Below, piece by piece: positions 60,025 through 60,945 of a DNA stretch of 64,000 nt; positions within the stretch are counted from its first letter, which is position 1, and each line of letters starts with the position of its first letter. The notes under the pieces were generated by a model, which saw only the letters and a program-made list of their open reading frames with translations, was not told the DNA's origin and made no database searches. Both the position numbers and the translations under genes were made by a program. Origin of the DNA: a virus; IMG/VR virus record IMGVR_UViG_3300032307_000723, positions 1 to 64,000 of that record; one strand, 5' to 3'.

Positions 60025-60945
60025 ACAAATTAGGGAAACCTAATACGTTCTTAGAAATTTTAGATTATCCATATAGTACTTCGGTATTATAAAAACGATA
60101 ATGGGTGGTATATCATCCTTAAATAAACCGGGAAACCGGGATAAAGTGAATCTGTTGTGTTGACAGGTTTGCGGTCTCAGAAATGGGACTCGAGTATACA
60201 AGTCGGATATCACCTGACCTTCAGTATTGAGGGCAACGCTTTAGAGAAAGTGGTTGGGTGACCGGGCGATGTGGGTCGTCAGGTTGAGGAGGGAACTCCA
60301 ATAAGAATAACCGATAGGAACCAAACAAGAAATTAGGTCATCCAACTTAGTAATTGTGGGTTCCAATATCAGAGAGGACTTAAAACCGAAAGGTATGATA
60401 GAGAACGAGTGGTGTCGCTACTATCCTTACAAAACATCTACCAAGGTGTCAGTTTGAAGTAATCTTAAAATATGAGAGTGGGGACACTCTACCGAGTAGA
60501 TTAGTATTTTGTTGTTCAAAAGATAACGAAGCTTACGACAGACCTCTACTTGGACACATCCACGACACATTTAACTTATAGGATATTTTAAGTAAAACTA
60601 AAAGATACATAAGCAAAAGTGTCTGTCAGGTATCATCGACAAGGTGACTACATAGTAACGAGCCGTTCGTTGCACAGGATGACCGCAAGTCTGAATGTAT
60701 TCTTACGAAAAACCTCTAAGGAGTCGAATCCCGAGTCAGTCCGCAAGATTGAAGAGAGTTGAATAATAAGAGAGTAGATGATATCTCAAGGAGTAATTGG
60801 TCTAACCAATTGTCACTGAGAATTACCATTCAAAAGATGGTGGAAAAGAAGGGAAACTATAATCCTTCCGAAGATTCTTAATAACACGAGTATTCTCATC
60901 GTATTAGCCAAAGAGGTGTTACATTAATTTGTAACACCTTTTTTT
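60025..60945 (+). ncRNA. Large ornate ncRNA (GOLLD/ROOL-class candidate)
   Basis: About 920 nt with no ORF of 60 aa or more; at least eight GNRA/UUCG hairpins; own promoter and terminator. Confidence 0.75.
60914..60945 (+). terminator. Intrinsic terminator
   Basis: AGGTGTTACA-TTAATT-TGTAACACCT-TTTTTT. Confidence 0.85.

What the first reader, a model, noticed from the sequence alone, without database searches (positions are those of the whole stretch)
60025..60945. About 900-nt protein-free ornate RNA with its own promoter and terminator
Seen: no ORF of 60 aa or more, visibly more G/C than the flanks, and dense stable tetraloop hairpins. These include ATTAGG-GAAA-CCTAAT (60029), ATAGTAC-TTCG-GTATTAT (60073), CCGG-GAAA-CCGG (60128), GTCTCA-GAAA-TGGGAC (60174), GGAG-GGAA-CTCC (60288), ACC-GAAA-GGT (60385), AGAGTG-GGGA-CACTCT (60475) and two C-GCAA-G loops (~60684, ~60742). 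It is bounded by TTGACA/TATACT and a perfect terminator. Established: GOLLD and ROOL RNAs are large ornate RNAs of unknown function associated with phages and tRNA clusters, and have been reported to form multimeric cages. Inference: this is a GOLLD-like or new large RNA.
Basis: partly seen in the sequence, partly recalled or inferred. Interest (0 to 1): 0.85.

Follow-up and report, generated by a model that had tools for sequence, protein, structure and literature searches.

The report
GOLLD giant RNA in freshwater phage
The roughly 900-base protein-free stretch is a full-length GOLLD RNA, a known class of giant phage RNA that builds hollow RNA-only cages and has no known function, so it is a new example of a known class and not a new one.

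Summary
Window 60025-60945 (+) is a full-length GOLLD RNA.

- **3' half:** 60492-60902 matches Rfam GOLLD (RF02032) end to end at 304.8 bits (cut-off 150).
- **5' half:** 60100-60491 has the same domain type as env-38 GOLLD, whose 14-mer cage was solved by cryo-EM. In 78 non-redundant IMG/VR homologs its helices are 95% paired, against about 39% when partners are slid. 89 of 118 pairs show compensatory changes.
- **Gene boundaries:** an 11/12 sigma-70-type promoter with an extended -10, and a 14-bp terminator, bound the gene. No ORF exceeds 57 aa.
- **Expression:** contigs from four independent freshwater or estuary metatranscriptome studies cover 60091-60900, some without a single mismatch.
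- **Host record:** a 117.6-kb fragment of a large tailed phage, probably of Bacteroidota.

Two things go beyond the textbook picture. A conserved 5' leader (a GTTCTT(T/A)GAAA box plus a hairpin) lies outside both the Rfam model and the solved construct. The genomic setting is also unusual: tRNA mimics upstream, SmpB just downstream, and no tmRNA or canonical tRNA in the record.

Function remains unknown. Self-assembly into a dihedral cage is inferred from conserved contact motifs. Overlapping windows of this scan had already noted the same stretch.

The parts
59991..60018 (+). Promoter: -35 TTGACA (59991-59996), 16-nt spacer, extended -10 TGtTATACT (60010-60018)
   Evidence: 11 of 12 matches with TG before the -10, the best site in 58000-62000. 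Homologs carry a -10/-7-like TATCTTTG at the same place. The transcription start near 60025 is inferred, not mapped.
60025..60102 (+). 5' leader, outside the Rfam model and outside the solved env-38 construct. It holds a variable hairpin (60029-60044), the conserved box GTTCTTAGAAA (60047-60057), stem P0 (ATTATC 60064-60069 paired with GATAAT 60097-60102) and, enclosed by P0, the hairpin 60073-60090.
   Evidence: The box GTTCTT[TA][AG]A occurs in 77 of 78 non-redundant homologs, 36-138 nt upstream of the AAATAAA motif. In random 260-nt segments it occurs in 137 of 1560. P0 changes to ACTCT/AGAGT in L002. The env-38 construct starts at the equivalent of about 60101.
60100..60491 (+). GOLLD 5' domain of the env-38 type, equivalent to P1-P13 in the numbering used in PMC12286853. 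Contact-motif equivalents:
- GAAA hairpin, 60128-60139
- GAGGGCAAC, 60229-60237
- GGAA hairpin, 60288-60299
- CAUCCAA loop, 60338-60344
- ACC-GAAA-GGT, 60385-60394
- GGGA hairpin, 60475-60490
   Evidence: The conserved blocks occur in the same order as in env-38. 78 homologs give 118 pairs, 95.3% paired, 89 pairs with compensatory change, and 0 of 500 shuffles reach the observed values. Slid controls give about 39% paired.
60492..60902 (+). GOLLD 3' domain (the Rfam RF02032 model). Features:
- L14 loop UUCAAAAG, 60515-60522
- A/U-rich variable linker without a tRNA, about 60545-60612
- CCGCAAG loop, 60683-60689
- L21a loop GUCGAAU, 60723-60729
- L21b loop CCGCAAG, 60741-60747
   Evidence: 304.8 bits (gathering score 150), model positions 1-416 of 416, and the long-range helix is intact. 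One search gives the same hit, the only one in the 117.6-kb record.
60910..60945 (+). Intrinsic terminator: 14-bp stem AAAGAGGTGTTACA/TGTAACACCTTTTT followed by a T run
   Evidence: An equivalent hairpin plus T run is kept in the close homologs L005, L006, L018 and L019.
61234..61671 (+). Neighbouring gene (context, not part of the RNA): phage-encoded SmpB
   Evidence: Pfam SmpB, 162.6 bits. It sits at the same position downstream of GOLLD in 4 close homolog loci.

Best explanation
Window 60025-60945 (+) encodes a full-length member of the GOLLD RNA family. It belongs to the same structural subtype as env-38 GOLLD, the RNA solved by cryo-EM as a 14-mer cage.

It is transcribed from its own sigma-70-type promoter and stopped by an intrinsic terminator. 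It accumulates as a stable non-coding RNA of about 0.8-0.9 kb.

Inferred mechanism. The 5' domain (60100-60491) and the 3' domain (60492-60902) fold separately. They then self-assemble, without protein, into a closed dihedral homo-oligomeric shell of roughly 12-14 copies. The contacts would be those seen in the solved cages:
- GNRA loops docking into helix minor grooves
- the GAGGGYAAC loop-to-loop chain
- the UCC:GGA kissing pair
- the L14 A-run
- the self-complementary L21a and L21b loops
In this model the A/U-rich linker points into the cavity.

What the cage does is not known. My best guess, about 0.3, is that it sequesters or organises tRNA-like RNAs or components of the translation or ribosome-rescue machinery during infection. 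This rests on the gene's position among tRNA mimics and next to SmpB.

Shown here: family membership, covarying structure, and presence in RNA libraries. Inferred: the transcript ends, cage formation (about 0.7) and the stoichiometry.
For: - **3' domain:** the Rfam GOLLD hit scores 304.8 bits against a gathering score of 150, over the whole model.
- **5' domain homology:** it matches the published env-38 sequence block by block.
- **Homologs:** at least 120 IMG/VR loci share the 5' motif. 101 are full-length and 78 are non-redundant.
- **Covariation in the 5' half:** 71 of 87 RNAalifold pairs show compensatory change. On the 118-pair structure, 95.3% of cells are paired against about 39% for slid partners, 89 pairs are compensatory against about 47, and 0 of 500 shuffles reach the observed values.
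- **Stability:** fold z-score -7.4.
- **Coding potential:** no ORF above 57 aa.
- **Boundaries:** promoter and terminator.
- **Expression:** RNA-library contigs from four studies cover 60091-60900. Several pieces have 0 mismatches, for example 60097-60288, 60376-60540 and 60538-60641, with word depths of 10^2 to 10^4.
- **Contact motifs:** the intermolecular contact residues listed for env-38 have conserved counterparts here. These are the GAAA, GGAA, GAGGGYAAC, UCC/GGGA, UUCAAAAG and GCA loops. L21a carries the CG (UCGA) palindrome, which alternates with GC in relatives.
- **Published behaviour:** GOLLD cages form without protein at nanomolar RNA concentrations (PMC12286853).
Against: - Nothing contradicts family membership.
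- Cage formation is not tested for this sequence.
- P11 is minimal here (a 3-bp ACC-GAAA-GGT), whereas env-38 has P11a-c, which makes an intermolecular contact.
- The loop equivalent to the env-38 GGGAU kissing loop is a G-C-closed GGGA tetraloop here. It can offer at most 3 pairs (UCC:GGA) where env-38 has 5.
- Published GOLLDs assemble as 10-, 12- or 14-mers depending on such elements, so the copy number is open.
- Both transcript ends are predicted only.
- The functional guess rests on gene neighbourhood. RNA genes may cluster for reasons of transcription alone.
Confidence: 0.9

Rival explanations
1. It is a GOLLD family member, but in the cell it works as a monomer or small ribonucleoprotein, for example bound to ribosomes or to a phage protein. 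On this view the RNA-only cage is an in-vitro state and not the functional form.
For: The function of GOLLD is unknown. Kretsch et al. cite pull-downs in which ribosomes bind GOLLD. Here, elements that make intermolecular contacts in env-38 are reduced: P11a-c, and the 5-bp kissing loop. A universally conserved single-stranded box in the leader looks more like a protein- or RNase-recognition site than a structural element.
Against: Published cages persist at 12.5 nM. Their contact residues are conserved or covary, including the symmetric loops. Most of those residues are conserved here, and the GC/CG switch in L21a recurs in this homolog set.
Confidence: 0.2
2. The region is a long cis-regulatory 5' leader of the downstream operon (the 93-aa ORF and SmpB), not an independent RNA gene.
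For: It lies on the same strand 33 nt upstream of the next ORF. SmpB follows GOLLD in four close relatives.
Against: A strong intrinsic terminator ends the element. The family occurs next to many unrelated genes: only 4 of 77 homolog loci have SmpB. It is a known stand-alone RNA (PMC12286853).
Confidence: 0.03
3. It is a new class of large RNA unrelated to GOLLD, or a ROOL- or OLE-type RNA.
For: None after testing. Rfam models only the 3' half.
Against: There is a full-length GOLLD hit at twice the gathering score, and no ROOL or OLE match at E <= 1. The 5' half is homologous to env-38 GOLLD.
Confidence: 0.01
4. The region encodes one or more small proteins, and the apparent hairpins are incidental.
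For: Several ORFs of 32-57 aa exist on both strands.
Against: Substitutions among 78 homologs preserve base pairing, not reading frames. Insertions and deletions of whole hairpins are tolerated. The fold z-score is -7.4.
Confidence: 0.01

Closest known systems
GOLLD env-38 (marine metagenome; cryo-EM 14-mer with D7 symmetry, PDB 9MEE; Kretsch et al. 2025, PMC12286853)
   Same: It has the same two-domain architecture and the same 5'-domain type. The blocks AAATAAA-stem-GAAA-stem-GATAAAGTG, TGCGG, CGAGTA.ACAAG, GATATCA, GAGGG.AAC, TTGAG-stem-GGAA-stem-CAATAAGAATAAC, GGTGGTG, TACCAA, GAAG and GAGTAG occur in the same order. The 3' domain is the same. Both P21a and P21b are present.
   Different: The window has about 75 nt of conserved leader upstream of where the env-38 construct starts. 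P11 is reduced to a 3-bp GAAA hairpin. The GGGAU kissing loop is replaced by a GGGA tetraloop. L21a carries CG (UCGA) where the Rfam consensus loop has GC. The first 147 nt are about 58% identical.
Streptococcus agalactiae GOLLD (700 nt; full-length 12-mer PDB 9L0R; 3' domain 10-mer PDB 9LMF; reviewed in PMC12990946)
   Same: The 3' domain is conserved and the RNA self-assembles into a dihedral cage. Like the window, it has a reduced set of P11 elements.
   Different: Sag lacks P9, P11a-c and P21b, and it comes from a Lactobacillales chromosome or prophage. The window keeps P21b and has the lake/env-38-type 5' domain. Which stoichiometry the window follows cannot be told from sequence.
Caulobacter phage phiCbK GOLLD (JX163858.1, about 105042-105528)
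   Same: It is a GOLLD in a large lytic tailed phage inside an RNA-gene island, with a tmRNA-related gene close by. The window has SmpB close by instead.
   Different: phiCbK scores only 165 bits and has tRNA-Gly embedded in the linker. It lacks all env-38-type 5' motifs and the leader box.
ROOL RNA (Rfam ROOL; 6- to 8-mer cages)
   Same: It is a large ornate phage- or tRNA-associated RNA that forms RNA-only cages. It works like GOLLD as far as is known.
   Different: Its sequence and secondary structure are unrelated. No Rfam ROOL match was found in the window.

Membership tests
GOLLD RNA (Rfam RF02032) | Covariance-model score at or above the curated gathering score (150 bits) over the conserved 3' domain | tested here: met
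   304.8 bits, E 2.8e-86, model positions 1-416 of 416, not truncated. One search gives the same hit.
GOLLD RNA (Rfam RF02032) | Signature elements of the 3' domain: the first hairpin with the UCAAAAG A-run loop (L14), the long-range helix that closes the multi-hairpin core, and the CGCAA-type loops (L20, L21a, L21b) | tested here: met
   In the alignment the [[[ ]]] helix GUCAGGUAUCAUC/GAUGAUAUCU is intact. UUCAAAAG lies at 60515-60522. The three loops lie at 60683-60689, 60723-60729 and 60741-60747.
GOLLD RNA (Rfam RF02032) | A large structured 5' domain of about 400 nt (variable between subfamilies) joined to the 3' domain, giving a total length of about 700-850 nt | tested here: met
   60100-60491 is homologous to env-38 residues of about 1-420. 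It covaries in 78 homologs. P1 to the 3' end is about 803 nt, or about 880-920 nt with the leader and terminator.
GOLLD RNA (Rfam RF02032) | Located in a phage or prophage | tested here: met
   The window lies in an IMG/VR virus record of 117,613 nt. It encodes tail-fibre and SbcC-like phage proteins.
GOLLD RNA (Rfam RF02032) | Proximity to tRNA genes or tRNA arrays (frequent, not obligatory) | tested here: inconclusive
   The whole record has only one aberrant tRNA, at 59760-59835, with a GGAA-capped anticodon arm. tRNA-like elements lie upstream. 44 of 77 homolog loci have ordinary tRNAs nearby.
GOLLD RNA (Rfam RF02032) | Expressed as an abundant RNA | tested here: met
   Metatranscriptome contigs from 4 studies cover 60091-60900, and some are identical to the window. 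The ends and the timing of expression were not determined.
GOLLD RNA (Rfam RF02032) | Protein-free self-assembly into a dihedral 10- to 14-mer cage | not testable with these tools
   Only the conservation of contact motifs could be checked. Two contacts are weakened: P11a-c and the 5-bp kissing loop.
ROOL RNA | Match to the Rfam ROOL covariance model | tested here: not met
   No match at the gathering threshold in the window, nor at E <= 1 in 57900-61100.
OLE RNA | Match to the Rfam OLE covariance model | tested here: not met
   No match.

The most novel reading that the evidence does not exclude
The conserved 5' leader is an unrecognised functional module of lake-type GOLLD RNAs. It consists of the GUUCUU(U/A)(G/A)A box, found in 77 of 78 homologs, plus a variable P0 hairpin. 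It is absent from Rfam's model and from the construct whose cage was solved. It could be a processing, assembly-timing or protein-recognition signal. On this reading GOLLD, the adjacent non-decoding tRNA mimics and the phage SmpB (with tmRNA in relatives and in phiCbK) form one module. The phage would use it to manipulate tRNA-shaped RNAs or ribosome rescue, with the cage as container or scaffold.
Probability: 0.15. Interest if true: 0.65.

Novelty: new member of a known kind. Interest (0 to 1): 0.3.

Why it matters
GOLLD is one of the largest bacterial or phage non-coding RNAs, and its function is still unknown even though its cage structure has been solved.

This copy adds nothing categorical. 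It does supply a clean, complete example with defined promoter and terminator signals, in a large freshwater phage that probably infects Bacteroidota. It has more than 100 retrievable relatives and direct metatranscriptome support.

The alignment built here shows that the 5' domain of the solved subtype covaries strongly. It also shows that a conserved leader lies outside the solved construct.

The recurrent neighbours are tRNA mimics, SmpB and tmRNA. They give concrete cargo or partner candidates for experiments on what the cages hold.

Tried and rejected
1. **'phages' collection:** a distant blastn found one relative, LR745206.1, a 634,780-nt uncultured phage. This looked like rarity but reflects the collection. 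IMG/VR holds at least 120 relatives.
2. **First 3'-domain pattern:** it was too strict and returned only 2 loci.
3. **env-38 in the fetched loci:** no near-identical env-38 sequence was found. Mapping to env-38 therefore used a 149-nt typed segment and motif order only. The residue numbers in the paper's table are offset by +2 to +4 from the PDF-extracted sequence, so contacts were mapped by motif, not by number.
4. **Leader box pairing with the L14 UUCAAAAG loop:** rejected. The window clade has CUUAGAA with an unchanged L14, so there is no covariation.
5. **Leader box as a promoter element:** rejected. It lies 20-30 nt downstream of the conserved -10/-7 motif.
6. **Metatranscriptome cover outside the RNA:** contigs gave no cover on 60010-60090, on the terminator, or on the flanking genes 59404-60009 and 60919-62000. 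They are not used as evidence for the transcript ends, for leader processing, or for silent neighbours. One exact contig ends at 60097 without a loose end, but a break in the assembly graph at a variable region explains that equally well.
7. **tmRNA:** sought because SmpB is adjacent. None was found in the 117.6-kb record by Rfam or ARAGORN. Only 60 nt next to the tmRNA of the close relative L005 matched the record, at 80% identity. The record is about 40% complete, so absence from the phage is not shown.
8. **Weinberg 2009:** the original GOLLD paper could not be read. Whether its 5' consensus included the leader box is therefore unverified.

Full report
**Observation.** The sequence at 60025-60945 is as described. 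The longest ORFs that overlap the region are 57 aa on the minus strand and 47 aa on the plus strand. The best sigma-70-type promoter match in the surrounding 4 kb lies directly upstream: TTGACA, 16 nt, TATACT, 11 of 12 matches with an extended -10 TG. A 14-bp hairpin followed by a T run lies directly downstream. G+C is 0.36-0.45 inside, against 0.29-0.33 downstream and 0.31-0.40 upstream, a real but modest rise. The 921-nt stretch folds at -259 kcal/mol, against -217 +/- 5.6 for dinucleotide shuffles, z = -7.4.

**Identity.** A scan of the whole window against Rfam 15 gives one strong hit. It is GOLLD (RF02032) at 60492-60902 on the plus strand, 304.8 bits against a gathering score of 150, covering model positions 1-416 of 416 with the long-range helix intact. 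A permissive scan of 57900-61100 adds no ROOL, OLE or other large-RNA match. It is the only GOLLD in the record, which is an IMG/VR virus contig of 117,613 nt that CheckV rates about 40% complete. The contig encodes collagen-like tail fibres and an SbcC-like nuclease.

**The 5' half.** Rfam models only the conserved 3' domain, so the 5' half had to be tested separately. The env-38 GOLLD sequence printed in the supplement of Kretsch et al. (PMC12286853) has the same succession of conserved blocks as window 60100-60491. A direct alignment of its first 149 nt with 60100-60246 leaves 85 invariant columns. The window therefore carries the same 5'-domain type as the RNA solved as a D7 14-mer cage.

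**Homologs and covariation.**
- A pattern from the 5' domain retrieved 17 IMG/VR loci, and a relaxed one at least 120.
- 12 of the first 18 loci scanned have a full Rfam GOLLD hit at the expected distance from the 5' motif.
- 101 full-length copies reduce to 78 non-redundant ones.
- On their alignment, RNAalifold predicts 87 pairs in the 5' half, 71 with compensatory double changes.
- A 118-pair consensus structure was counted independently. 95.3% of cells are paired, against 38-41% when partners are slid by 1-3 columns. 89 pairs show compensatory changes, against 39-51. None of 500 shuffles reaches the observed values.
- The whole 0.9-kb element is thus a conserved structured RNA, not only its Rfam-modelled half.

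**Expression.** Six metatranscriptome runs from four studies (freshwater and estuary) hold 39-46% of the sampled words of a 1.2-kb stretch centred on the element. I laid one run from each of the four studies. Their contigs cover 60091-60900. Several pieces are identical to the window, for example 60097-60288, 60376-60540 and 60538-60641, and word depths run from hundreds to more than ten thousand. This shows that the RNA, or near-identical relatives, is present in RNA libraries. Contigs cannot give ends, strand or timing, and holes in contig cover are not used as evidence.

**Anatomy.**
- *Promoter:* 59991-60018. The inferred start is near 60025.
- *Leader, 60025-60102:* a variable hairpin, the box GTTCTTAGAAA (60047-60057), and stem P0 (60064-60069 with 60097-60102) enclosing the UUCG hairpin.
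- *5' domain:* 60100-60491.
- *3' domain:* 60492-60902, with an A/U-rich linker at about 60545-60612 that holds no tRNA.
- *Terminator:* 60910-60945.

The leader deserves a remark. The box GTTCTT[TA][AG]A occurs in 77 of 78 non-redundant homologs, at a variable distance of 36-138 nt from the first core motif. In random 260-nt segments of the same loci it occurs in 9%. The solved env-38 construct starts after the box. Loose ends of RNA contigs from relatives extend 29 nt into their leader hairpins, so at least part of the leader is transcribed. Its role is unexplained. phiCbK GOLLD, which has a different 5' domain, lacks it.

**Likely mechanism.** The intermolecular contacts tabulated for env-38 can be located here by motif.

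| env-38 contact | Element in the window | Coordinates |
|---|---|---|
| B1 | GAAA loop | 60132-60135 |
| B2 | GAGGGYAAC loop chain | 60229-60237 |
| B3 | GGAA loop | 60292-60295 |
| B6 | A-run of L14 | 60515-60522 |
| B8 | self-complementary L21a | 60723-60729 |
| B9 | self-complementary L21b | 60741-60747 |

L21a carries the CG (UCGA) variant here. Relatives such as L007 and L021 carry GC, which is the same switch that Kretsch et al. used as evidence for a symmetric kissing contact.

Two contacts are weaker.
- The 5-bp AUCCC:GGGAU kissing pair of env-38 is kept in one subgroup, with a compensatory AUCUC:GAGAU in L082. In the window it is reduced to UCC versus a G-C-closed GGGA tetraloop.
- P11 is a minimal ACC-GAAA-GGT hairpin, without the P11a-c elaboration.

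Published GOLLDs form 10-, 12- or 14-mers depending on exactly such elements. I therefore infer cage formation (about 0.7) but leave the copy number open.

**Function.** Function is unknown for the whole family. The neighbourhood here is suggestive.
- Upstream lies an island of RNA genes. It holds a tRNA-like element at 59282-59385. It has small RNAs with their own promoters and a terminator at 59440-59585. It has a sub-threshold YrlA-like hit at 59664-59760 (38 bits). Directly after that comes a tRNA whose anticodon arm is capped by GGAA.
- SmpB begins 289 nt after the GOLLD terminator stem (60943).
- The record has no tmRNA and no canonical tRNA.
- Among 77 homolog loci, 44 have tRNAs, 13 have a tmRNA called by ARAGORN, and 4 have SmpB within the fetched flanks. 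Rfam adds weak tmRNA hits in L005 and L007 and their duplicates L012 and L014.
- phiCbK has a permuted tmRNA about 500 nt from its GOLLD and a tRNA inside it.

This fits the published idea that the cages deal with tRNA-shaped RNAs or the translation apparatus. RNA genes may also cluster simply because they share transcription signals, so I give the idea about 0.3.

**Comparison and verdict.** Every testable defining feature of GOLLD is met. Proximity to canonical tRNAs is inconclusive, and cage assembly cannot be tested here. ROOL and OLE membership fail. The element is a new member of a known kind. The leader box and the SmpB and tRNA-mimic setting are the only aspects that go beyond what is described, and they are leads, not findings. 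Other notes of this scan on overlapping windows had already flagged the same locus. I checked their claims about SmpB, the missing tmRNA, the YrlA-like element and the GGAA-capped tRNA only as far as the calls cited above.

Noticed in passing
window 59664-59835 (+): There is a sub-threshold Rfam YrlA (Y RNA-like) hit at 59664-59760 (38 bits, gathering score 69, E 4.8e-6). It is followed directly by a tRNA-shaped gene at 59760-59835 whose anticodon arm ends in a GGAA loop. ARAGORN reports an 'anticodon' of ggaa, and Rfam scores it as tRNA at 30.2 bits. It is the only tRNA call in the 117.6-kb record.
   Followed up: partly
window 59282-59385 (+): A tRNA-like element of about 104 nt has acceptor stem GTCAGGA/TCCTGAC, T arm ACAGGTTCGAATCCTGT and a long internal insertion. 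Neither ARAGORN nor Rfam calls it.
   Followed up: no
window 59410-59585 (+): A promoter-like site (TTGACT at 59410) precedes a small non-coding stretch with two GTTCGAGAGAA boxes and a terminator (CCCACA...TGTGGG plus T10). It is a possible unknown small RNA.
   Followed up: no
window 59847-59975 (+): A long hairpin, CTCTGTGATAAGA...TCTTATCACAGA, followed by an A run, lies between the odd tRNA and the GOLLD promoter.
   Followed up: no
window 61234-61671 (+): A phage-encoded SmpB (Pfam, 162.6 bits) begins 289 nt after the GOLLD terminator stem. Rfam and ARAGORN find no tmRNA in the 117.6-kb record, which is about 40% complete. The best bacterial SmpB matches are all Bacteroidota, at 51-58% identity (Gaoshiqia, Cyclobacteriaceae, Kordia, Flavobacteriaceae, Chitinophagaceae).
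   Followed up: partly
window 58820-59640, and relatives' GOLLD promoters (L005, L006, L018, L019): Promoters in the RNA island carry TAnnTTTG about 17-19 nt after a TTG motif: TATCTTTG near 58843, TACCTTTG near 59518 and near 59631. From my own knowledge this is the Bacteroidota -7/-33 promoter type. Together with the SmpB affinities it points to a Bacteroidota host.
   Followed up: partly
loci L026, L030, L033, L045, L050, L054, L061, L066, L082, L102, L106, L124, L135; L218 (phiCbK) 616-934: tmRNA genes lie within a few hundred to a few thousand nt of GOLLD in 13 of 77 non-redundant relatives. Several lie immediately upstream on the same strand. In the cultured phage phiCbK a permuted tmRNA lies about 500 nt from a GOLLD that also has tRNA-Gly embedded in it. 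As far as I could check, a link between GOLLD and tmRNA or SmpB is not emphasised in the papers read here.
   Followed up: partly
window 60047-60057, and 77 of 78 homologs: The conserved box GTTCTT(T/A)(G/A)A lies in the GOLLD leader at a variable distance (36-138 nt) from the core. It is outside the Rfam model and the cryo-EM construct. Its role is unknown.
   Followed up: partly
window 41124-47504 (+): Three consecutive, overlapping collagen-repeat tail-fibre genes (768, 688 and 671 aa) give very strong PHROG tail-fibre hits.
   Followed up: no
window 58025-58807: A DUF192 protein (minus strand, 72 bits) and a Nudix hydrolase (78 bits) flank the start of the RNA island. A weak DHH-family match (24 bits, below the cut-off) lies in the 467-aa ORF at 56625-58028.
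   Followed up: no
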